From: Patescibacteria group bacterium
Lineage (GTDB): Bacteria; Patescibacteriota; Microgenomatia; UBA8517
DNA length: 64,000 nucleotides
Reading direction: 5' to 3'
NCBI GenBank assembly: GCA_018823885.1
Contig: JAHJHG010000009.1
Coordinates: 151,751-215,750, forward strand
Numbering within the stretch: the first letter of the stretch is position 1; each line of letters opens with the position of its first letter. The position numbers and the translations under genes were made by a program. Positions 4,122 through 61,594 of this stretch are shown piece after piece. Under the pieces are notes generated by a model. The model saw nothing but the letters and a program-made list of their open reading frames with translations, was not told where the DNA came from and searched no databases.

Positions 4122-4424
4122 ATGGTGTTAATGTTTTATACATATATCATACGCACGACGGGGAACACTTTGTACACAGGTCAAACAAATAACCTTAAGC
4201 GAAGAGTAGAGGAACACACAATCCACGGCAAGCGGGCTTCTAAGTATTTGAAATCATTTTTAGGTTGTAAGCTTGTTTACTATGAAATTTATCCTATCCG
4301 AAGCGAGGCAATGCGCCGAGAGGCTGAATTAAAGAATTGGTCTCATGATGAAAAGGAGGATCTTGTTAAACAGTGTCAATTTCCGCTGACAGAATTTAAT
4401 GTGGAACAAAAAGTTCCAATATAG
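4122..4424 (+). CDS. GIY-YIG nuclease superfamily protein (YhbQ/UPF0213-like)
   Basis: FYTYIIRTTGNTLYTGQTNNLKRRVEEH is a classic GIY-YIG N-terminus. Paralogous to 25716-25973. Confidence 0.7.
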   Translation: MVLMFYTYIIRTTGNTLYTGQTNNLKRRVEEHTIHGKRASKYLKSFLGCKLVYYEIYPIRSEAMRREAELKNWSHDEKEDLVKQCQFPLTEFNVEQKVPI

Positions 4425-4586: not shown

Positions 4587-7556
4587 ATGATGGAAAATAC
4601 TGTTAAAAACTATATTCAGTCAATCTCCTCAAAATTCTCTTACGAGGAAACTAGCGAGATGGGGTATCGTACTGATTTTGAAATATTGCTTAAAGAAATT
4701 TTCAAATCAATCAAGGTTACTCGCTTTGATCATGATGCGAGAGCCAGACAGGGCAATAAACCGGATTTTGTTGTAGTTAACAATAGCGTGCCTATTTTGT
4801 ATATAGAAACGAAAGATATTGGAAAGTCTCTAGATAAAGTTGAGAAATCAGAACAAATGACCAGATATTTTGGGTATGCCAATCTTGTTCTCACAGATTA
4901 CACAGAGTTTCGTTTTTACAGAAACGGTATTAATTATGGTGAGCCAATAAAAATTGCGGATTATGATATAAAAGATCGAACAATCACTCCGAACCCGAAA
5001 AATTATGAATACCTAGCAAAAACCCTACTTGATTTTACTAAGTCCCACAAAGAACCAATCCGTTCGGGTAAGCACCTTTCAAGAATTATGGGTGGCAAAG
5101 CTCAGAGAATTCGTGATAACACACGCCACTTTTTCTCCAATGGGTCGAAAAAAGATACAGATCTTGTCAAATTGTTTGAAACCTTTAAAAAACTTCTCTT
5201 ACATGATCTGACACCAGACTCTTTCGCTGACATGTATGCACAGACTCTTGTATATGGTCTTTTTGTCGCGCGCTATCACGATAAAACACTTGGTAATTTT
5301 TCAAGACAAGAAGCTCGTGAGCTCATCCCAAATTCCAATCCTCTTTTGCGTCACTTTTTCGATCATATAGTTGGAGCAGATTTTGATAAACGACTTAAAT
5401 ACATTGTTGATGAGTTGTGTGAGGTATTCTCACATGCCGACGTAGCCAAACTCATGGAGGAATATTTCAAGGAAGATTCCCAAAATGGACAAAAAGGCCC
5501 AGATCCAGTTATCCATTTTTATGAGGATTTTTTAAAGAAGTATGATCCAGATTTAAGAAAAAAGATGGGAGCTTACTACACTCCACAACCTATTGTGCAA
5601 TTTATCGTTTGCTCAATCGACTATTTACTCAAAAAAGAATTCGGACTTTCAACTGGCCTTGCTGATACTTCAAAAACGACAGATAATATTCATCGCGTTC
5701 AGATTCTTGATCCGGCAGTGGGAACAGGAACATTTATCAGTGCAGTTATCAGAACAATTTATAAGAGACTATTAAAAAAAGGGCAAAAGGGACGATGGCC
5801 TGCATATGTCCACAATGACTTGCTTCCACGCCTGCACGGTTTTGAGATAATGATGGCTCCATATACAATAGCCCATTTAAAATTAGGTATTGATTTTAGA
5901 AAGACTGGATTTTGGGATTTCCATCGTCGTTTGGGTATTTATCTTACTAATTCACTAGAGGAAAGTAGTATCCAACAGCAAGATTTATTTGCATTTGGTT
6001 TGGCAGAAAGTATCGCTGAAGAATCAAAAGAGGCATCAGTCATTAAGAACAAAACTCCAATTATGGTTGTAATTGGCAATCCACCTTATAGTGTTAGTTC
6101 ATCAAATGTAAATGCATATACAAAGAAATTAATAGAAGTATATAAAAGAGGCTTAAATTTAAGAAATACACAACCGTTATCTGATGATTATATTAAGTTT
6201 ATAAGATTGGCTGAAGTTTTAATAAATAAAAATAAAAGTGGAATAGTTGCGTATATTTCAAACAGATCTTTCTTGGAGGGTATTATCCATAAATCAATGA
6301 GAGCGTCACTTCTTGGTTCGTTTGATGATATATACATTGTTGACTTAAACGGTGATGCGACAATCAATCAAACAAGAGATAATCCTGATAATGATCAAAA
6401 TGTTTTTGATATAAAACAAGGTGTAGCAATATCAATTTTTGTGAAAAAGGTAAATAGTGTTACAGAGAAAAAATTAAATTATTTTAGTGTTCGTGGCAGT
6501 CGATTATCAAAGTTTGATTTTTTAAGTAGCACAAAATTAAGTGATATTGATTTTTCTGAACTCCAACCAAATTCAGAATTCAATTTTTTTGTTGAAAAAG
6601 ACTTAACTAATGATGAGTACGTAAAATTTATTTCTCTAGACGAAATATTTAATGTCCATTCAAGTGCAATAGCAACATCTGATGATAACAACTTGGTATC
6701 GTTTACAAAAAGAGACGAATATAAAATCCCGTTTTCGTACAGACCCTTTGATCAGAGATATATCAATTATGATTTGAAGAAAGTAAAAGGTAATCGTTAT
6801 AATCGTTTGGTTAAATTTTTAATAAATGAAGAATTTAGTGAACTTTTTGAAAATATAAGTTTGGCTTGCTCAAAAAATATCACAACAGAAAGTTTCTCTA
6901 GTGTTTTAGCTAGTAAATCACTTATTGAAAGGAAGTTTTGTGATTATTCAAGAGGCCCACATGTTTTTCCTCTTTACATATACAATGGCAAGGAATCACG
7001 TATCTCAAATGTGAACAATAATTTTACTGCTAATGTATCTCGAATAGTTGGTGATGTATATCCTGAAGATATTTTTGATTATATTTATGCAGTTTTATAC
7101 TCACCCAGCTACCGTGAGGAATACAGGGAATTTTTGAAAATTGATTTTCCAAGAATTCCATATCCTAAGAATAAAGAAGGTTTTAAAAAACTTGTTTCGC
7201 TCGGAAACGAATTAAGAGCACTTCATTTACTGGAATCGTCGAAGTTGAATCAATTCATTACTACTTATTCTATTGATGGGTCTAATATTGTAGAAGAAAC
7301 AAATTACCAAAATGGGAATGTTCGTATCAATGAAAATCAATATTTTGGGAATGTTCCAGAAATAGCCTGGAATTTTCATATCGGCGGGTATCGACCAGCT
7401 CAAAAATGGCTAAAAGATCGCAAAGGTCGAAAATTAATCAATAAAGACCTTGAACATTATCAGAAAATAATTGTTGTTTTGGTAGAGACGGTAAAGATTA
7501 TGGAAGAGATAGATAAATTTTACAATTTGGTAATAAGTTCCTCAAAAAGCCAATGA
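4587..7556 (+). CDS. Type IIG restriction-modification enzyme (fused PD-(D/E)xK endonuclease, gamma-class N6-adenine methyltransferase and C-terminal specificity domain; MmeI/Eco57I-like)
   Basis: N-terminal PDFVVV...ILYIETKD (PD...ExK). GAYYTPQPIV (Eco57I-family MTase signature). DPAVGTGTF (motif I). NPPY (motif IV). A long C-terminal domain ends in the GGYRPAQKWLKDRKG box typical of this family. Confidence 0.75.
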   Translation: MMENTVKNYIQSISSKFSYEETSEMGYRTDFEILLKEIFKSIKVTRFDHDARARQGNKPDFVVVNNSVPILYIETKDIGKSLDKVEKSEQMTRYFGYANLVLTDYTEFRFYRNGINYGEPIKIADYDIKDRTITPNPKNYEYLAKTLLDFTKSHKEPIRSGKHLSRIMGGKAQRIRDNTRHFFSNGSKKDTDLVKLFETFKKLLLHDLTPDSFADMYAQTLVYGLFVARYHDKTLGNFSRQEARELIPNSNPLLRHFFDHIVGADFDKRLKYIVDELCEVFSHADVAKLMEEYFKEDSQNGQKGPDPVIHFYEDFLKKYDPDLRKKMGAYYTPQPIVQFIVCSIDYLLKKEFGLSTGLADTSKTTDNIHRVQILDPAVGTGTFISAVIRTIYKRLLKKGQKGRWPAYVHNDLLPRLHGFEIMMAPYTIAHLKLGIDFRKTGFWDFHRRLGIYLTNSLEESSIQQQDLFAFGLAESIAEESKEASVIKNKTPIMVVIGNPPYSVSSSNVNAYTKKLIEVYKRGLNLRNTQPLSDDYIKFIRLAEVLINKNKSGIVAYISNRSFLEGIIHKSMRASLLGSFDDIYIVDLNGDATINQTRDNPDNDQNVFDIKQGVAISIFVKKVNSVTEKKLNYFSVRGSRLSKFDFLSSTKLSDIDFSELQPNSEFNFFVEKDLTNDEYVKFISLDEIFNVHSSAIATSDDNNLVSFTKRDEYKIPFSYRPFDQRYINYDLKKVKGNRYNRLVKFLINEEFSELFENISLACSKNITTESFSSVLASKSLIERKFCDYSRGPHVFPLYIYNGKESRISNVNNNFTANVSRIVGDVYPEDIFDYIYAVLYSPSYREEYREFLKIDFPRIPYPKNKEGFKKLVSLGNELRALHLLESSKLNQFITTYSIDGSNIVEETNYQNGNVRINENQYFGNVPEIAWNFHIGGYRPAQKWLKDRKGRKLINKDLEHYQKIIVVLVETVKIMEEIDKFYNLVISSSKSQ

Positions 7557-19231: not shown

Positions 19232-19302
19232 TGCGGGATGGTGTAATGGTAGCACGCTGCTCTCTGGAAGCAGAGATTGGGGTTCGAGTCCCTGTCCCGC
19301 AG
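19232..19302 (+). tRNA. tRNA-Gln (anticodon CUG)
   Basis: Manual cloverleaf: acceptor TGCGGGA/TCCCGCA with U1:A72 (typical of bacterial tRNA-Gln). D-stem GTGT/GCAC. Anticodon stem CTGCT/AGCAG with loop CTCTGGA. T-arm TGGGG-TTCGAGT-CCCTG. Discriminator G. CCA not encoded. Confidence 0.85.
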
Positions 19303-19408
19303 CTAGTTTGGGCACCCTATTGACCCATATGCCTCGAAAAGCCCATGTTTCTCTTCAAAACTATCGATCATACTCCCAAACATTCGTACCACACCCTCAG
19401 CTTCCGGA
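19300..19408. repeat. Copy B of the ~108-bp direct repeat family, immediately 3' of tRNA-Gln
   Basis: TTGGGCACCCTATTGACCCATATG...CCAAACATTCGTACCACACCCTCAGCTTCCGGA. Its ends align with copies A and C. Confidence 0.55.
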
Positions 19409-20806: not shown

Positions 20807-20852
20807 AGTTCTATGGTTTAAATTATAAGGACTAGAGAGGCCTAAGCCCACA

Positions 20853-20960
20853 AGCTCAGCCAAATTGGGCACCCTAGCGACCCATGTGCTAAGAATAACC
20901 CGAAAGTTCTTGCTTAACCTCCGTATTATTTCCAAAACATTCAGTTTACAATGCTGAACC
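20853..20960. repeat. Copy C of the ~108-bp direct repeat family
   Basis: TTGGGCACCCTAGCGACCCATGTGCTAAGAATAACCCGAAAGTTCTTG...AAACATTCAGTTTACA. About 80% identical by eye to copy A. Confidence 0.6.
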
Positions 20961-22159: not shown

Positions 22160-22267
22160 AGCTCATAAGTATACCATAGAACCACAAGCAAAACAAGTAC
22201 TGTTACCATGACCTCTCTTTTAGCCTCAACTGTGGTACACTCAGAGTAATTGGTTATGGGCTCGAAA

Positions 22268-22350
22268 GGTTCTAGACCGACATGCTCAATTATCTCGGAA
22301 TCAGAACCCCAGGCACGACATCCAGTTATGGGACTGGAAGGGTCTAGACC
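22268..22350. promoter_or_regulatory. Pair of palindromic operator-like sites (GGTTCTAGACC at 22268-22278 and a perfect GGTCTAGACC at 22341-22350), each followed by a (C/G)ATGCTCA-like half-box
   Basis: 10-bp perfect palindrome. The extended motif R-G-K-TCTAGACC-N3-RKGCTCA recurs at 23808-23818 and 23855-23864. Confidence 0.3.
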
Positions 22351-22438
22351 AGAGAGCTCAGCAAAGATTTTTAGTCTCTGTTTTACGGTAAAAGTCAAAA
22401 AATATATTTTCAATATTTGCTATAATTAACATAACAGT

Positions 22439-22831
22439 ATGCAAAGTGAATGGTATCAGCAACTAATTAGACCATCATGGTCACCGCCTTCTTGGCTTTT
22501 TGGCCCAGTTTGGACTTTTCTATATCTATTAATTGTTGTTTCCTTTTTTAAAGTATTTCAATTAACTTTTCAAAAAAGAATCTCATTTATTATCGCTCTC
22601 CCGTTTATTCTTAATCTCATTTTTAACTTCGCATTTACTCCTTTACAATTTGGGTTAAGAAGCAATATCCTGGCGGCCATTGACATTCTTCTTGTCCTGA
22701 TCACTCTTGTCTGGGCGATGAAGGCAATCTATCCTCATGCAAAATGGATTACTTATATCCAAATCCCATATTTGTTGTGGGTTAGTTTTGCGACTGTTTT
22801 GCAGTTAGTCATTACTTATTTAAACCGTTAA
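22439..22831 (+). CDS. tspO: TspO/MBR-family tryptophan-rich membrane protein (short)
   Basis: WYQQLIRPSWSPPSWLFGPVWTFLY matches the TspO N-terminal signature (W..L.KP.W.PP..F.PVW..LY). Four predicted TM helices. 130 aa is short for the family. Confidence 0.55.
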   Translation: MQSEWYQQLIRPSWSPPSWLFGPVWTFLYLLIVVSFFKVFQLTFQKRISFIIALPFILNLIFNFAFTPLQFGLRSNILAAIDILLVLITLVWAMKAIYPHAKWITYIQIPYLLWVSFATVLQLVITYLNR

Positions 22832-23807: not shown

Positions 23808-23864
23808 CACTCGTTTAACTTGCTGGGAATAGACTGTAAGTAAGGGATCAAGTAGTTCTAGACC
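23808..23864. promoter_or_regulatory. Second pair of TCTAGACC palindromic sites (ATTCTAGACCC at 23808-23818; GTTCTAGACC plus TGTATGCTCAGCC at 23855-23877)
   Basis: Same extended motif as at 22268-22350. Lies between convergent genes. Confidence 0.3.
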
Positions 23865-23898
23865 TGTATGCTCAGCCACATAACACACTGAGGATTTT

Positions 23899-24915: not shown

Positions 24916-25197
24916 ATGACAACAGAAGATAGAGAAATTCAAAATTTACTACCTGAAGCAAAGGAGTTTGTTCACGAAGTTAAAGATGGGGTACATAAAT
25001 ATGCAAATAGAGAATATGGGCATGCTGCCAAAAACCTCGCACTCATATTAGACGGGTGTGCTGAAGAAGGTGTTTCTCGGGAAACCCAAAGAATATTAAT
25101 GAAAGAGTTTATAGAAAGACAAATAGAAGAATTTGGTCCAAACATAATTGATTTTTTAAGAGATGAGTTAAAACTTGTAATAGAGAATGAAGATTAA
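24916..25197 (+). CDS. Hypothetical small acidic protein
   Basis: 93-aa ORF 21 nt upstream of the SET-domain gene. Confidence 0.35.
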   Translation: MTTEDREIQNLLPEAKEFVHEVKDGVHKYANREYGHAAKNLALILDGCAEEGVSRETQRILMKEFIERQIEEFGPNIIDFLRDELKLVIENED

Positions 25198-25218
25198 AGG
25201 CAGCAAATAATTGGGGGT

Positions 25219-25710
25219 ATGACAATAAGAGTGCTTTGGCCGACCCGCTCAGCCAATCTTCCCAAAGATGACAACATCTTTGCTATAATTTTCATCATGC
25301 AAAAACTTCTTGCTTCAGACAAGGTATATATTAGTAAATCAGGAATTCTTGATGCCGGTAGGGGAGTTTATGCAAGACGTGATATTAAGAAAGGTGAAAT
25401 GATTGAAAGGTGTCCAATTATTGAAGTTTCCAAAAATGATACATCCAATCTGAAAGAAAGCGTTCTTGTAACTTATTTCTTCTATTTTGGCAAAAACAAG
25501 GAACGGTTAGCGATAGTTTTAGGTTTTGGATCAATATATAACCATTCATACAAACCTAACGCAACTTATAAAATGAAATCTCGAGAAAAGACAATTGATT
25601 TTATTGCCATAGACGATATCAAGAAAGATGATGAGATTACATTTAATTATTCCAATTGCAGCAACCCAAAAGGTAAGGAAAACCCATTGTGGTTTGAAGT
25701 AAATAAATAG
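25219..25710 (+). CDS. SET-domain protein (putative protein-lysine methyltransferase)
   Basis: GRGVYARRDIKKGEMI, then the NHSCxPN-type motif YNHSYKPNA, then the ELxFDY-type motif EITFNY. 163 aa. Confidence 0.7.
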   Translation: MTIRVLWPTRSANLPKDDNIFAIIFIMQKLLASDKVYISKSGILDAGRGVYARRDIKKGEMIERCPIIEVSKNDTSNLKESVLVTYFFYFGKNKERLAIVLGFGSIYNHSYKPNATYKMKSREKTIDFIAIDDIKKDDEITFNYSNCSNPKGKENPLWFEVNK

Positions 25711-25715
25711 TTTGT

Positions 25716-25973
25716 TTGCTAAAATGTATTGTGTTTACTGTATATATCTTAAGAACCGATAAGAACACTCTTTATACGGGGCAAACCAAAGACCTTGTGG
25801 CTCGCCTAGGAAAACATACATTAGGAAAGGGAGCAAAATACGTAAGAGGATTTAAATCTTTTGAGTTGGTTTACACAGAAAAATTTAAAACTCGTTCAGA
25901 AGCCTTAAAGCGAGAGCATGAGTTAAAGAAATTATCAAAACAAGAAAAAGAAAATCTAATAGCTGCCCTATAG
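25716..25973 (+). CDS. GIY-YIG nuclease superfamily protein (YhbQ/UPF0213-like), paralog of 4122-4424
   Basis: VYILRTDKNTLYTGQTKDLVARLGKH and the C-terminal RSEALKREHELK. Begins 5 nt after the SET gene stop. Confidence 0.7.
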   Translation: MLKCIVFTVYILRTDKNTLYTGQTKDLVARLGKHTLGKGAKYVRGFKSFELVYTEKFKTRSEALKREHELKKLSKQEKENLIAAL

Positions 25974-26146
25974 TTTCTTGACAAATGTTTTTAATCTGTT
26001 ACACTGACATCTGTTCCGTTAACTCGGAACCAAAGACTGTTTTTTTAATTTGATTTAAGTCGGTAAGTAAGGGTACCCCAGAAACTACTTTTAACACGTA
26101 TCTTTCCTTCAAACACTTGCATTCCCATTAATATAAGCAGTTTCGT

Positions 26147-27322
26147 TTGAAACTAATGTATAAACAAAGAAATCATTCGCGTTATTCGCGAAGAAGGAAT
26201 TTTGGGCCCAGAAAGGCCAATATTCGTAGCTTTGATCCAAGGACTGTTATTGGGAAAATAACCAGTCCTATTTCTGATGTCTGTGAAATTAAAAACAAAT
26301 TTTCAGACTTTGTTCTTGACGGGCGACTTTCTGGAAATATCGCAGCTCACAGATTTAATGCGCCTACTCCTATCCAAGATCAGGCGATACCTGAAATCTT
26401 ATCCGGTCATGATGTGGTTGGTGTTGCCAACACAGGTACGGGTAAAACAGCTGCTTTTTTAATCCCCCTTATTAATAAAATAGTTCTTAATGGAAGATCT
26501 AGAGTTTTAATCATTACGCCTACACGCGAGTTGGCTGTTCAAATCGAAAAGGAATTACAAGGTTTTTCCAGTGGTATGGGTATATATTCTGCCGTTTGTA
26601 TTGGAGGAGTTTCCATTCATGGGCAAATAAATAAGCTTCGAAGAGGCCCTCATTTTGTGATAGGCACTCCAGGGAGGTTGCTTGATTTAGAAAATCAAAG
26701 GAAGATTAATTTTAATAGCTTTGATTCAATTGTTTTGGACGAAGTAGATAGAATGCTTGATATGGGATTTATCAACGATATGAAAAAAATTATTTTAAAA
26801 CTTCCAAGAAATAGGCAATCACTCTTTTTCTCAGCTACTCTTGATGAGAAAGTAAAGGGCGTAATGAGTCAATTTGTTTCGAATCCGGTCATGATTTCAG
26901 TTAAAGTCGCAGATGCCAGCACAAACGTACGTCAAGATGTCGTTGAATTGAGAGGTAGAAACAAAGCAGACGTTTTATGTGAACTATTAGATACAAAAGA
27001 AGCGTCAAAAACTCTTATATTCATGAGGACTAAAAGAAGTGCGGACAAGCTGCACAGAAGTCTTACAGATGTTGGGTTTCATACAGCGGTTATGCATGGA
27101 AACAAGACTCAAAACCAAAGACAAAGATCTCTTGAGCAATTCCGTCATGGTAGGGTAAGCGCTTTGATTGCGACAGACGTTGCCTCAAGAGGAATAGACG
27201 TCGATGATATTACTCACGTTATCAATTACGATCTTCCGGAAGACTATGATACTTATATTCACAGAATTGGGAGAACAGGTAGAGTAGACAAAAAAGGAAT
27301 CGCTCTAACATTTATAGGCTAA
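26147..27322 (+). CDS. DEAD-box ATP-dependent RNA helicase
   Basis: Q-motif region. Walker A GTGKTAAF. DEVD (motif II). SAT. HRIGRTGR (motif VI). Confidence 0.85.
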   Translation: MKLMYKQRNHSRYSRRRNFGPRKANIRSFDPRTVIGKITSPISDVCEIKNKFSDFVLDGRLSGNIAAHRFNAPTPIQDQAIPEILSGHDVVGVANTGTGKTAAFLIPLINKIVLNGRSRVLIITPTRELAVQIEKELQGFSSGMGIYSAVCIGGVSIHGQINKLRRGPHFVIGTPGRLLDLENQRKINFNSFDSIVLDEVDRMLDMGFINDMKKIILKLPRNRQSLFFSATLDEKVKGVMSQFVSNPVMISVKVADASTNVRQDVVELRGRNKADVLCELLDTKEASKTLIFMRTKRSADKLHRSLTDVGFHTAVMHGNKTQNQRQRSLEQFRHGRVSALIATDVASRGIDVDDITHVINYDLPEDYDTYIHRIGRTGRVDKKGIALTFIG

Positions 27323-28181: not shown

Positions 28182-28706
28182 TTATATTTTAATCATCTCC
28201 TGAGGGTATTTGGGAATTAGCTTGTTTAAATATATTTGCAGGCTGTTGCCCCTAAGATCTTTTAAACACTCTAGAAGTCCAGGTTGAGCTTCGGGTCGGA
28301 TTTTTCGAGCCCACTTTCTAAAACTTTTTCTTTGCTTAGCGCTTAGTTGGGATCGAAAATGTTTGTCGGAATCGACATACTTAAGAAGAATAGTATATGT
28401 TGGTATCAAACCAAGTCCATGATACTTATTTATTGTCGCACATGACTTAGGGGTCAGATGAACTCCTCCACCTTTGTCTTGCTCGATAATCTCAAGTTCC
28501 AAGAGGGGACGAGTATCCGACCCATTTTTCAAAAGGTTTGCCCTACATATCATTCTGCCATTTTTCTTAAGAACCCTCCTGAGGAATACTTTTGAACAAC
28601 CGGGCACAGCATTATTATCAAGAATCGTGTACAGCTCTCTCAGACACTTCATGCCACCCTCCTCGGTGTGATGATGTTTCCCTTTCGGGACTGTGTAAAG
28701 GAACAA
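28182..28706 (-). CDS. Hypothetical basic protein
   Basis: 174 aa. His-rich N-terminus. No confident domain assignment. Confidence 0.4.
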   Translation of the reverse strand: MFLYTVPKGKHHHTEEGGMKCLRELYTILDNNAVPGCSKVFLRRVLKKNGRMICRANLLKNGSDTRPLLELEIIEQDKGGGVHLTPKSCATINKYHGLGLIPTYTILLKYVDSDKHFRSQLSAKQRKSFRKWARKIRPEAQPGLLECLKDLRGNSLQIYLNKLIPKYPQEMIKI

Positions 28707-61090: not shown

Positions 61091-61594
61091 ATGGCTAAGG
61101 CTAAGAACAGGATTTTTATCAATCCAACCAAGGGAAAAATATCGAGCACAAAGATGGTGGAAGCGATTGCTGATTTCGTGGAAGAAGAGCCAGATAGTTT
61201 ATATCGACTAATCATCGGTACCGACTCTCAGGCACGAAGGAAGAATGGGAAAGCTGAAATAGATTATGTAACCGCCGTTGTTGCTCATAGAATCGGTAGG
61301 GGAGCTCGTTATTATTGGAGAAAAGAGAAAAAGAATAAAATACCAGTACTTCGGGATAAAATATACACAGAAACTTTAATGTCGCTTGATGTAGCTCAAG
61401 AAATCGTTCCTTGTCTTCGAGAAGCAATTTCCCCGACAAAGTATGATTTCGAAATCCATATTGACGTGGGACCACTGGGACCGACAAGGGATATGATAAA
61501 AGAGGTTGTTGGTATGGTAAATGGCAGTGGATTTGAAGCTAAAACTAAACCTGAATCGTGGGGAGCTTCTTCAGTTGCAGACAAACACGCTTGA
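61091..61594 (+). CDS. YkuK/DUF458-like RNase H-fold protein
   Basis: LIIGTDSQ motif and overall size (167 aa) fit the YkuK family. Confidence 0.45.
   Translation: MAKAKNRIFINPTKGKISSTKMVEAIADFVEEEPDSLYRLIIGTDSQARRKNGKAEIDYVTAVVAHRIGRGARYYWRKEKKNKIPVLRDKIYTETLMSLDVAQEIVPCLREAISPTKYDFEIHIDVGPLGPTRDMIKEVVGMVNGSGFEAKTKPESWGASSVADKHA

What the first reader, a model, noticed from the sequence alone, without database searches (positions are those of the whole stretch)
25219..25973. SET-domain protein in a reduced CPR-like genome, in an operon with a GIY-YIG protein
Bacterial SET-domain proteins (motifs YNHSYKPNA and EITFNY here) are uncommon. They are often horizontally acquired effectors or nucleoid/histone-like protein methyltransferases. 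Here the gene is tightly coupled (5-nt gap) to a GIY-YIG gene and preceded by a 93-aa unknown gene. It lies inside an accessory stretch of hypothetical genes. The target could be a host nucleoid protein, a phage protein or, for a symbiont, a host factor.
Basis: partly seen in the sequence, partly recalled or inferred. Interest (0 to 1): 0.5.

Follow-up and report, generated by a model that had tools for sequence, protein, structure and literature searches.

The report
Minimal SET methyltransferase beside GIY-YIG nuclease
The window encodes a real, probably active, very small SET-type protein-lysine methyltransferase from a large, strongly conserved family of candidate-phyla-radiation (CPR) bacteria. 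It is repeatedly found next to, or fused with, a small GIY-YIG nuclease, which hints at a shared but still unknown job inside the cell rather than a role as a host-directed effector.

Summary
Both genes are real. The SET ORF matches Pfam SET (E=3e-17) and the next ORF matches GIY-YIG (E=2e-19). All catalytic motifs are conserved, and the model's best structural matches are the minimal SET enzymes vSET, S. pombe Set7 and Plasmodium PFL0690c.

The true SET start is almost certainly ATG 25297 (137 aa). The GIY-YIG start is probably GTG 25731 (80 aa). Each gene sits 5-7 nt downstream of its own extended -10 box, so they look like two tandem leaderless genes rather than a classical operon. The 93-aa upstream ORF is not conserved next to SET anywhere.

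SET belongs to a family with more than 700 90%-identity clusters, mostly Woese-, Levy- and Roizmanbacteria. Members are 70-88% identical although synonymous sites are saturated (dN/dS about 0.1). This argues against recent acquisition and against a fast-evolving effector.

The genomic context is highly variable. GIY-YIG is nevertheless adjacent in 4 of 80 species loci and in 12 of 80 GIY-centred metagenome loci, in both gene orders. At least seven distinct true fusion proteins exist, also in both orders. GIY-YIG is in turn often next to a DEAD-box helicase.

No substrate can be named. Verdict: a new member of a known kind, with an undescribed SET/GIY-YIG association worth testing.

The parts
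25281..25289 (+). Extended -10 promoter box TGCTATAAT, 7 nt upstream of the SET start codon. It predicts a leaderless SET mRNA.
   Evidence: Sequence read. TGnTAnnnT lies 5-8 nt before the start in 38 of 54 CPR SET loci, none of which has a Shine-Dalgarno-like motif. The background rate is 0.7% per position.
25297..25710 (+). SET-domain protein-lysine methyltransferase gene, 137 aa, minimal vSET-like form. The ORF extension 25219-25296 is probably not translated.
   Evidence: Pfam SET E=3.3e-17. It is 100% identical to a UniRef entry of 137 aa, and homologues are 131-142 aa. Conserved residues are G23, Y60, N82, H83, N88, E113, Y118 and the PLWF tail. PDB profile hits: Set7 at 3e-14 and vSET at 9e-14. 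Foldseek top hit is vSET with TM 0.80.
25717..25725 (+). Extended -10-like box TGCTAAAAT, 5 nt upstream of GTG 25731. It is the probable own promoter of the GIY-YIG gene.
   Evidence: Sequence read. The same box and spacing occur in relatives whose GIY-YIG is not preceded by SET (L087, L094). 41 of 72 GIY-YIG genes have a -10 hexamer 4-8 nt before a start codon, and only 4 of 72 have an SD-like motif.
25731..25973 (+). Small GIY-YIG (URI-type) nuclease gene, 80 aa from GTG 25731. The alternative start TTG 25716 gives 85 aa.
   Evidence: Pfam GIY-YIG E=1.9e-19. Catalytic Y10, Y20, R30, H34 and E67 are invariant in 15 SET-linked homologues. The L100 orthologue starts at the equivalent GTG.
25213..25261 (+). 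Degenerate copy of a dispersed intergenic repeat of about 45 nt. It separates the 93-aa ORF from the SET promoter.
   Evidence: nhmmer E=5.5e-6. The same element sits directly upstream of SET in L003, L092, L094 and L083, and directly downstream of SET in L005 and L017.
25978..26005 (+). Sigma-70-like promoter (TTGACA, 16 nt, TACACT, with TG) for the DEAD-box helicase gene, immediately after the GIY-YIG stop codon.
   Evidence: 10 of 12 match in the consensus scan. This is a consensus match only.
26147..27322 (+). DEAD-box helicase gene. It is the recurrent neighbour of the GIY-YIG gene and, through it, of SET.
   Evidence: Pfam DEAD 9.6e-50 and Helicase_C 3e-34. It lies next to GIY-YIG in 15 of 80 GIY-centred loci, and next to the GIY-SET fusion in L081.

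Best explanation
The gene at 25297-25710 encodes a minimal, single-domain SET enzyme of about 135 aa, with no pre-SET or post-SET zinc modules. It most likely works as a homodimer, like the viral vSET, and uses S-adenosylmethionine to methylate lysine(s) on an endogenous, conserved protein of the CPR cell.

It is made from its own leaderless transcript.

It is functionally coupled to the small GIY-YIG nuclease encoded next door. The two are repeatedly adjacent, in either order, and have fused several times. The likeliest site of action is therefore either the nuclease itself or a protein bound to the nucleic acid on which the nuclease, and possibly the neighbouring DEAD-box helicase, works.

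What is shown: domain identity, motif integrity, strong purifying selection, promoter architecture, and recurrent adjacency and fusion.
What is inferred: dimerisation, the intracellular target, and the functional coupling to GIY-YIG.
Unknown: the substrate.
For: Enzyme identity:
- Pfam SET 63 bits.
- Profile hits to solved minimal SET enzymes, with NHSxxPN and EITxNY aligned to the vSET motifs.
- AF2 model at pLDDT 70, with best Foldseek hits vSET (TM 0.80), Set7 and PFL0690c.
- Invariant G23, Y60, N88, E113 and Y118, and >=90% conserved N82 and H83, across 142 homologues.

Endogenous, constrained function:
- 703 homologous clusters, nearly all of those with a source name Patescibacteria.
- dS of at least 1 or saturated, with dN 0.12-0.25.
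- SET is 76% identical to L004 while the flanking helicase is 52% identical.
- No signal for secretion effectors, phage or defence.

Dimer: relatives exist as tandem SET-SET proteins, one with a degenerate first half.

Coupling to GIY-YIG:
- Directly adjacent in L004, L015, L028 and L033.
- Adjacent in 12 of 80 GIY-centred metagenome loci, in both orders.
- Seven fusion clusters in both orders with different junctions, five of them lacking an internal Met.
- The fusion genes were confirmed on contig DNA.
- Linked pairs fall in at least 4 SET clades and at least 5 GIY clades.

Leaderless expression.
Against: - At least 90% of SET loci have no GIY-YIG within 6 kb, and no neighbour family is shared by more than 9 of 80 loci.
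- The GIY-YIG family is about ten times larger (at least 6944 clusters), is multi-copy (a second paralogue lies at 4122-4424), and mostly occurs without SET. Some adjacency is therefore expected by chance, and GIY-YIG is a promiscuous domain.
- Each gene has its own promoter.
- No substrate, activity or interaction has been tested.
- The C-terminal 18 residues, including the invariant PLWF, are modelled with low confidence.
Confidence: 0.45

Rival explanations
1. The enzyme is the same endogenous SET lysine methyltransferase, but it has no functional tie to GIY-YIG. Both are small, self-contained leaderless genes that accumulate in the same variable intergenic 'parking' area upstream of the DEAD-box helicase gene. 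The fusions are neutral accidents of very short spacers.
For: - SET context is highly variable.
- GIY-YIG is multi-copy and very abundant.
- GIY-YIG to DEAD adjacency exists without SET (L085, L086, L113, L126 and others).
- Each gene has its own -10 box.
- SET is only 70% identical between the window and L015, whereas the flanking genes are 81-85% identical. This suggests that SET alleles are swapped in and out.
Against: - Seven fusion clusters occur in both orders with trimmed junctions that lack the second start codon, and they have diverged to 48-69% identity while keeping both domains' catalytic residues.
- Linkage is spread over several clades of both trees, and over two GIY subtypes.
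Confidence: 0.35
2. A secreted effector (nucleomodulin-like) that methylates proteins of the organism on which the CPR cell lives.
For: Characterised bacterial SET proteins such as NUE, LegAS4/RomA, BaSET and BtSET are host-directed (PMC3980110, PMC10117894). CPR bacteria are often episymbionts (my own knowledge).
Against: - No N-terminal signal-like hydrophobic stretch (sequence).
- LegAS4 NCBIfam model scores 15 bits against a cut-off of 550.
- dN/dS is about 0.1 with 70-88% identity across many lineages, unlike fast-evolving effectors.
- It is fused to a cytoplasmic-type nuclease and, in one relative, to RNase H.
- Known hosts of CPR are prokaryotes without eukaryotic histones (my own knowledge).
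Confidence: 0.07
3. A mobile or phage-derived cassette (vSET-like) that serves an element's own interests, for example anti-defence or modification of a host nucleoid protein during infection, and spreads horizontally among CPR genomes.
For: - Patchy distribution and variable context.
- Position at the border of a non-syntenic stretch flanked by a dispersed repeat.
- The nearest solved structure is a viral enzyme.
- SET is less conserved than its flanks between the window and L015.
- The UniRef twin is labelled 'viral metagenome'.
Against: - No PHROGs or PADLOC hit for SET or any neighbour.
- No integrase, transposase or phage gene was seen in the stretch.
- Synonymous sites are saturated among copies, so any spread is ancient.
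- The window is a cellular genome. CPR cells pass the filters used to make viral fractions (my own knowledge).
Confidence: 0.08
4. A catalytically inactive or non-methyltransferase SET-fold protein, acting as a binding module.
For: No activity has been measured. The first half of some tandem relatives is degenerate.
Against: In the window protein and its family, every motif needed for SAM binding and catalysis is invariant or conserved in at least 90% of members.
Confidence: 0.05

Closest known systems
vSET (PBCV-1 A612L; PDB 1N3J, 3KMA), the minimal dimeric viral SET H3K27 methyltransferase
   Same: A single SET domain of about 120-137 aa with no zinc-binding pre-SET or post-SET modules. It is the best structural match (TM 0.80, 32% identity). 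The profile E-value is 9e-14, with the GFGxxxNHSxxPN and EITxxY motifs aligned. Tandem SET-SET relatives fit a dimeric working unit.
   Different: The window protein is bacterial and chromosomal, in an organism with no eukaryotic histone H3. It has an extra invariant C-terminal PLWF(E) motif. Its substrate is unknown, and dimerisation has not been tested.
Schizosaccharomyces pombe Set7 (PDB 5H6Z) and Plasmodium PFL0690c (PDB 4RZ0)
   Same: Set7 is the best sequence-profile match among solved structures (E=3e-14). Set7 and PFL0690c follow vSET in the structural ranking. Both have a compact SET core.
   Different: Both are eukaryotic chromatin enzymes, with only 26-33% identity to the window protein.
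Go1-SET of Methanosarcina mazei and cpnSET of Chlamydia: prokaryotic SET enzymes that methylate the cell's own DNA-binding proteins (MC1-alpha; Hc1/Hc2)
   Same: Small prokaryotic SET proteins with endogenous nucleoid-protein substrates (PMC3980110; the cpnSET substrates are from my own knowledge). This is the functional precedent I favour.
   Different: No direct comparison was run here. CPR genomes lack MC1 and Hc1 as far as I know. No GIY-YIG partner has been described for either.
SETMAR/Metnase (human SET domain fused to a transposase-derived nuclease)
   Same: A SET methyltransferase covalently joined to a nuclease domain, as in the CPR GIY-YIG/SET fusions (comparison from my own knowledge).
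   Different: The nuclease fold is unrelated (DDE versus GIY-YIG), as are the origin and lineage. This is an analogy only.
Small stand-alone GIY-YIG (URI-domain) proteins of bacteria (COG2827 / UPF0213, e.g. E. coli YhbQ)
   Same: About 80-100 aa, the GIY-YIG catalytic core only, with all catalytic residues present. Source names include 'GIY-YIG nuclease family protein' and 'Excinuclease ABC C subunit domain protein'.
   Different: Membership of that specific orthologous group was not tested: there is no NCBIfam hit. The function of these proteins is itself poorly known.

Membership tests
SET-domain protein-lysine methyltransferases (Pfam PF00856) | Significant match to the SET profile over the whole domain | tested here: met
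   63.3 bits against a gathering score of 22.4, profile positions 1-105 of 105.
SET-domain protein-lysine methyltransferases (Pfam PF00856) | N-terminal GxG cofactor motif, and the NH(S/C)xxPN motif that forms the SAM pocket and pseudoknot | tested here: met
   G21-R22-G23 is present, with G23 invariant. In N82-H83-S-Y-K-P87-N88, N88 is invariant and N82, H83 and P87 are conserved in at least 90% of 142 homologues. The motif aligns to vSET NHSKDPN.
SET-domain protein-lysine methyltransferases (Pfam PF00856) | ELxF/YxY-type motif with the catalytic tyrosine | tested here: met
   In E113-I-T-F-N-Y118, E113 and Y118 are invariant. The motif aligns to vSET EEITISY.
SET-domain protein-lysine methyltransferases (Pfam PF00856) | SET beta-fold with the knot-like C-terminal threading | tested here: inconclusive
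   AF2 mean pLDDT is 70. All of the top 50 Foldseek PDB hits listed are SET-domain methyltransferases or complexes containing one, the best with TM 0.80. Residues 120-137, which would complete the knot and lysine channel, are below pLDDT 50.
SET-domain protein-lysine methyltransferases (Pfam PF00856) | SAM-dependent lysine methylation activity | not testable with these tools
   Needs biochemistry.
Minimal dimeric vSET-like SET enzymes | Single domain under about 140 aa, without Cys-rich pre-SET or post-SET modules | tested here: met
   137 aa, with only two Cys residues (C39 and C123), so no Cys-rich zinc module is possible. No other Pfam domain is present.
Minimal dimeric vSET-like SET enzymes | Homodimer as the active unit | not testable with these tools
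   Indirect support only: tandem SET-SET relatives P0152, P0153 and P0161.
Secreted bacterial SET nucleomodulins (NUE, LegAS4/RomA, BaSET, BtSET) | Match to an effector family model, a secretion signal or system, and a eukaryotic host | tested here: not met
   The LegAS4 model scores 15 bits against a cut-off of 550. No signal-like N-terminus is visible. Strong purifying selection applies. The presence of secretion systems in the genome was not examined.
GIY-YIG nuclease superfamily (Pfam PF01541) | Profile match plus the catalytic residues Tyr (GIY), Tyr (YIG), Arg, His/Tyr and Glu | tested here: met
   70.1 bits against a cut-off of 22.6. Y10, Y20, G22, R30, H34 and E67 are invariant in alignment A2.
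Two-gene operon SET-GIY-YIG | Same strand, short gap, a single promoter and conserved co-linearity | tested here: not met
   Same strand and a 5-20 nt gap are met. However, GIY-YIG has its own extended -10 box 5 nt before GTG 25731. The gene order is reversed in L087 and L089. Most SET loci lack GIY-YIG.
Anti-phage defence systems / phage genes | Match to PADLOC or PHROGs models | tested here: not met
   No hit better than E=0.0078 for SET, and none for GIY-YIG.

The most novel reading that the evidence does not exclude
SET and the small GIY-YIG nuclease form a previously undescribed two-part module of Microgenomates-type CPR bacteria, sometimes made as a single polypeptide. In this module, lysine methylation is coupled to nucleic-acid cleavage or processing. 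SET might switch the nuclease on or off, or mark a nucleoid or RNA-bound protein at the nuclease's (and the DEAD-box helicase's) site of action. This would be a prokaryotic counterpart of SET-nuclease fusions such as SETMAR.
Probability: 0.3. Interest if true: 0.65.

Novelty: new member of a known kind. Interest (0 to 1): 0.4.

Why it matters
Almost everything known about bacterial SET enzymes comes from pathogens that inject them into eukaryotic cells. What SET enzymes do inside prokaryotes is largely open; Go1-SET and cpnSET are the few precedents.

This family is tiny, abundant and unusually constrained, and it occurs in organisms with about 1-Mb genomes where little is dispensable. That points to an important endogenous lysine-methylation target.

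The recurrent fusion with a GIY-YIG nuclease gives a concrete, testable partner. It could lead both to the substrate and to a function for the widespread but uncharacterised small GIY-YIG proteins.

Tried and rejected
- **First AF2 run.** It used 28 near-identical sequences and gave pLDDT 54, which is unusable. A repeat with 142 sequences gave pLDDT 70.
- **Conserved operon partner of SET.** Clustering all ORFs within 4 kb in 80 loci found no family in more than 9 loci. The small VOC, DUF1801, YdeI-like and cold-shock genes that recur are generic.
- **93-aa upstream ORF as part of the system.** It has no Pfam, NCBIfam, PADLOC or PHROGs hit and no homologue in 160 loci. Rejected.
- **RNase H as a second recurrent partner**, suggested by the P0157 fusion. 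No RNase H gene lies near SET in any locus.
- **Conserved DNA upstream of the SET promoter as a tRNA remnant.** ARAGORN and Rfam found nothing there. It turned out to be a dispersed repeat.
- **The repeat as a structured RNA.** RNAalifold gave no consensus structure on either strand, and single-sequence folds were inconsistent. There was no Rfam hit.
- **MGMT-like gene as a general neighbour.** It occurs only in the L015/L097/L086 clade and, 5 kb from SET, in L001.
- **Literature.** No paper in the library combines SET domain with Patescibacteria, or reports a SET plus GIY-YIG architecture.
Full report
**1. What is in the sequence**

They are 24916..25197 (93 aa), 25219..25710 (163 aa from the first ATG) and 25716..25973 (85 aa from a TTG), all on the + strand.

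The second ORF matches Pfam SET at E=3.3e-17 (63 bits, cut-off 22.4, whole profile). The third matches Pfam GIY-YIG at E=1.9e-19 (70 bits, cut-off 22.6). The quoted strings YNHSYKPNA and EITFNY are present. The 93-aa ORF matches nothing in Pfam, NCBIfam, PADLOC or PHROGs.

The window is a cellular genome. It encodes Lon, SecA, class I and class II aminoacyl-tRNA synthetases, TruB, UppP and two tRNAs. The closest relatives of its genes carry Woesebacteria or Patescibacteria names. The 'CPR-like' label is therefore reasonable.

**2. Gene boundaries and expression signals**

Homologues of the SET protein are 131-142 aa and begin M-K-K-L-L. One UniRef entry of 137 aa is 100% identical to the product that starts at ATG 25297.

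Immediately upstream lies TGCTATAAT (25281-25289), an extended -10 box, followed by 7 nt and then the ATG. This architecture is conserved. Of 54 CPR-type loci, 38 have TGnTAnnnT ending 5-8 nt before the start codon, and none has a Shine-Dalgarno-like motif. The background rate is 0.7% per random position. The SET gene is therefore predicted to be transcribed as a leaderless mRNA from its own promoter. The 26 codons upstream of Met27 are promoter DNA, not coding sequence.

The GIY-YIG gene shows the same design. TGCTAAAAT (25717-25725) is followed by 5 nt and then GTG 25731. That GTG is also the start of the L100 orthologue (80 aa). Across relatives, 41 of 72 GIY-YIG genes have a -10 hexamer 4-8 nt before a start codon, and only 4 of 72 have an SD-like motif.

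The pair is thus better described as two tandem leaderless units than as one operon. Read-through from SET cannot be excluded, because no terminator-like site was found between them. The helicase gene downstream has its own good sigma-70-type consensus (TTGACA, 16 nt, TACACT) right after the GIY-YIG stop.

**3. Is it a real SET enzyme?**

A profile of 28 homologues finds solved SET enzymes only. The best are S. pombe Set7 (5H6Z, E=3e-14), PBCV-1 vSET (1N3J, E=9e-14) and Plasmodium PFL0690c (4RZ0, E=4e-11). In these alignments GFGSIYNHSYKPN lines up with vSET GFGAIFNHSKDPN, and EIT(V/F)NY lines up with vSET EEITISY.

Across 142 homologues, G23, Y60, the L75-S79 stretch, N88, E113 and Y118 are invariant. 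N82 and H83 are conserved in at least 90%. A C-terminal P-L-W-F motif is also invariant (L, W, F) or conserved in at least 90% (P).

An AlphaFold2 model built with that alignment reaches pLDDT 70. Its best PDB matches are vSET (TM 0.80 on the target, 32% identity), Set7 and PFL0690c. All of the top 50 hits listed are SET-domain methyltransferases or complexes containing one. The last 18 residues are poorly modelled, so the knot and lysine channel could not be inspected.

There are no Cys-rich pre-SET or post-SET modules. I conclude that this is a catalytically competent minimal SET lysine methyltransferase of the vSET type. Relatives that are tandem SET-SET proteins, one with a degenerate first copy, fit a dimeric working unit like that of vSET.

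**4. How common is it, and how is it evolving?**

The word-indexed search returned 703 clusters at 90% identity. The best 120 are all 71-88% identical to the window protein, and the named ones are Patescibacteria or Woesebacteria.

The exhaustive search of 50%-identity representatives gave 30 clusters at E<=1e-30, 1839 at E<=1e-10 and 4668 at E<=1e-3.

A pattern-limited scan of one genome per GTDB species confirmed 158 species. The first 60 or so are Woese-, Levy- and Roizmanbacteria and other CPR. Below about 50% identity come Saprospiraceae, Endozoicomonas and a planctomycete. Many of the TPA assemblies are titled 'uncultured Gammaproteobacteria', but their SET sequences nest among CPR ones and one of them (L015) is syntenic with the window. 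I do not trust those labels.

Between the window and 14 relatives, synonymous sites are at or near saturation (pS 0.54-0.95, dS from 0.95 to not computable), while dN is 0.12-0.25, so dN/dS is about 0.1 or lower. Compared with L004, SET is 76% identical while the adjacent DEAD-box helicase is 52% and GIY-YIG is 55%.

The high similarity therefore reflects long-term purifying selection, not recent transfer. The gene is not a rarity in this lineage, and it does not behave like a fast-evolving effector.

It is also not universal or syntenic. No neighbour family is shared by more than 9 of 80 loci. The commonest neighbours are assorted small genes.

Between the window and its close relative L015/L100, the genes downstream of SET are co-linear and mostly 73-85% identical: GIY-YIG 82%, helicase 81%, cupin 85%, TruB 73% and UppP 80%. 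The exception is the 174-aa ORF (28182-28706), which matches at only 43-49%. SET itself is only 70% identical, and everything upstream differs. SET thus sits exactly at the border of a variable stretch, and its allele may have been exchanged within the lineage.

**5. The GIY-YIG connection**

In the 80 SET-centred species loci, a GIY-YIG gene lies within 6 kb in 7. It is directly downstream in 4 of them: L004, L015, L028 and L033.

In the converse test I took the 80 metagenome loci carrying the nearest relatives of the window's GIY-YIG. SET is adjacent in 12 of them: 11 of the 21 loci with at least 80% GIY identity, plus L159. Both gene orders occur among near relatives. The order is SET then GIY in the window and in L083, L092-L094 and L097-L101, and GIY then SET in L087 and L089. 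In those two loci the SET -10 box overlaps the GIY-YIG stop codon.

Seven distinct 90%-identity clusters are single polypeptides that carry both domains.
- GIY-YIG then SET: P0078, P0121 and P0124. P0100 is a truncated example.
- SET then GIY-YIG: P0122, P0127, P0133 and P0135.

Their junctions differ, and five of them lack the second gene's start codon. The fused proteins have diverged to 48-69% identity while keeping the catalytic residues of both halves. Two of the fusions were confirmed on their contigs.

Two divergent GIY-YIG subtypes are involved. In neighbour-joining trees the linked pairs fall in at least 4 SET clades and at least 5 GIY-YIG clades, interspersed with unlinked genes. These trees are built from short sequences and are only indicative.

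Several points weigh against a functional link.
- The GIY-YIG family is much larger, with at least 6944 clusters.
- It is multi-copy. A second paralogue lies at 4122-4424 in this window.
- It mostly occurs without SET, and at least 90% of SET loci have no GIY-YIG nearby.

With roughly 5 GIY-YIG genes per megabase of unlinked sequence, I estimate about 0.6 chance adjacencies among 61 CPR loci, against 4 observed. This is a rough figure and is not corrected for shared ancestry.

I rate a genuine functional or physical link at somewhat under one half.

**6. The helicase**

GIY-YIG is next to a DEAD-box helicase gene in 15 of the 80 GIY-centred loci, across many GIY clades and often without SET. 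The GIY-SET fusion in L081 sits immediately after such a helicase.

GIY-YIG to helicase therefore looks like the older synteny. SET is placed into it at varying positions: before GIY-YIG, or between GIY-YIG and the helicase. In the clade closest to the window, an MGMT/ATL-like gene precedes the unit. The order is MGMT-like, SET, GIY, helicase in L100, and MGMT-like, repeat, GIY, helicase in L086.

**7. Most likely mechanism and rivals**

I favour a cytoplasmic, probably homodimeric, SAM-dependent lysine methyltransferase acting on an endogenous conserved protein. It would be functionally tied to the GIY-YIG nuclease, with the target being either the nuclease itself or a protein on its nucleic-acid substrate (confidence 0.45).

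The precedent for endogenous nucleoid-protein targets is Go1-SET, which methylates MC1-alpha (PMC3980110). The precedent for a SET-nuclease fusion is SETMAR (my own knowledge).

The main rival has the same enzyme with only coincidental GIY-YIG neighbourhood (0.35). A secreted effector (0.07), a mobile or phage-derived cassette (0.08) and an inactive SET fold (0.05) are less likely, for the reasons listed under each. The substrate cannot be inferred with these tools.

**8. Novelty**

The protein is already annotated automatically as a 'SET domain-containing protein-lysine N-methyltransferase' in UniRef and NCBI. As a domain assignment it is therefore known, and the window gene is a new member of a known kind.

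I found nothing in the searchable literature on SET proteins in Patescibacteria, or on a SET plus GIY-YIG architecture. Three things appear to be undescribed: the extreme constraint on the family, its conserved leaderless promoter, and the recurrent two-way fusions with GIY-YIG. They are testable.

**9. Seen on the way**

The DNA between the 93-aa ORF and the SET promoter is a degenerate copy of an intergenic element of about 45 nt. Its consensus is roughly TAT(AA)GGG..AAAGGTYCTAGACCGRCCTGCTCAGC.

The first nhmmer pass found five copies in the window, all on the + strand and all between 20.8 and 25.3 kb. That is the non-syntenic stretch between tRNA-Gln and SET. About 50 further copies lie in related loci, never inside long ORFs and often 0-25 nt after a stop codon.

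The element has no consensus RNA structure and no Rfam match. I could not explain it.

Noticed in passing
window 20821-20868, 22251-22292, 22321-22369, 23836-23880, 25213-25261 (all +); also L002, L003, L005, L009, L017, L084-L092, L094, L099-L102 and others: A dispersed intergenic repeat of about 45 nt, with consensus roughly TAT(AA)GGGnnnnAAAGGTYCTAGACCGRCCTGCTCAGC. There are 58 nhmmer hits in 1.25 Mb, and 55 are on the same strand as the reference gene. None of the 50 checked lies inside a long ORF. Many start 0-25 nt after a stop codon, and some form tandem pairs that are conserved between genomes. All five window copies lie in the non-syntenic 20.8-25.3 kb stretch. No consensus RNA structure, tRNA or Rfam match was found. 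Its nature is unknown: it could be REP-like, a cassette boundary, a protein-binding site or an unusual 3'-end signal.
   Followed up: partly
window 4122-4424 (+), next to 4587-7556 (+): A second GIY-YIG paralogue of 100 aa (E=2e-31 to the GIY profile) lies just upstream of a 989-aa Type ISP-like restriction-modification / N6-methylase gene. Small GIY-YIG genes are therefore multi-copy in this genome.
   Followed up: partly
L085, L086, L113, L118, L122, L125-L127, L134, L160, L081; window 25731-27322: The small GIY-YIG gene lies next to a DEAD-box helicase gene in 15 of 80 GIY-centred loci, across many GIY clades and often without SET. This is a wider conserved pairing of a nuclease with a helicase, of unknown meaning.
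   Followed up: partly
proteins P0157, P0152, P0153, P0161, P0166, P0148 (one search hits): Other architectures exist in the SET family. P0157 is SET plus RNase H. P0152, P0153 and P0161 are tandem SET-SET proteins; the first copy in P0153 has lost the NH motif. P0166 is an 889-aa protein with five SET-like stretches. P0148 carries an insertion of about 30 aa in the SET domain.
   Followed up: partly
window 19232-19303 (tRNA-Gln) to 25297; L017 5888-5959, L009 4855-4926, L011 2783-2856, L001 278-349; also L013, L061, L070: A tRNA gene, most often tRNA-Gln, recurs upstream of SET at distances from 40 nt (L017) to 6 kb (window). Variable hypothetical genes fill the gap. This may be a tRNA-linked variable region with SET at its far edge.
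   Followed up: no
L015 2206-2508, L099/L100 3261-3563, L097 679-981, L086 2065-2367: An MGMT/ATL-like protein of 100 aa (motif IPCHRVV) lies directly upstream of SET, or of GIY-YIG where SET is absent, in the clade closest to the window. The window has unrelated hypothetical genes there instead.
   Followed up: partly
window 22419-22441 and 61091: Other genes share the extended -10 motif close to the start codon. TspO has TGCTATAAT 12 nt before its ATG, and the ORF at 61091 has TGGTATAAT 6 nt before its ATG. Only 12 of 53 long ORFs have an SD-like motif. Leaderless or short-leader expression may be common for stand-alone genes in this genome.
   Followed up: partly
L006, L007, L009, L010, L015, L019, L022 and others (record titles): Many TPA metagenome-assembled genomes titled 'uncultured Gammaproteobacteria bacterium', and one titled 'Nanoarchaeia archaeon', carry CPR-type SET genes. 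L015 is syntenic with this CPR window, so the taxonomic labels in those records look unreliable.
   Followed up: no
window 25974-26146: The 173-nt spacer before the DEAD-box helicase gene has a strong sigma-70-like consensus at its 5' end. This implies a 5' UTR of about 135 nt, which contains a GTTCCG/CGGAAC hairpin. It may be a regulatory leader, as in cold-shock helicase genes.
   Followed up: no
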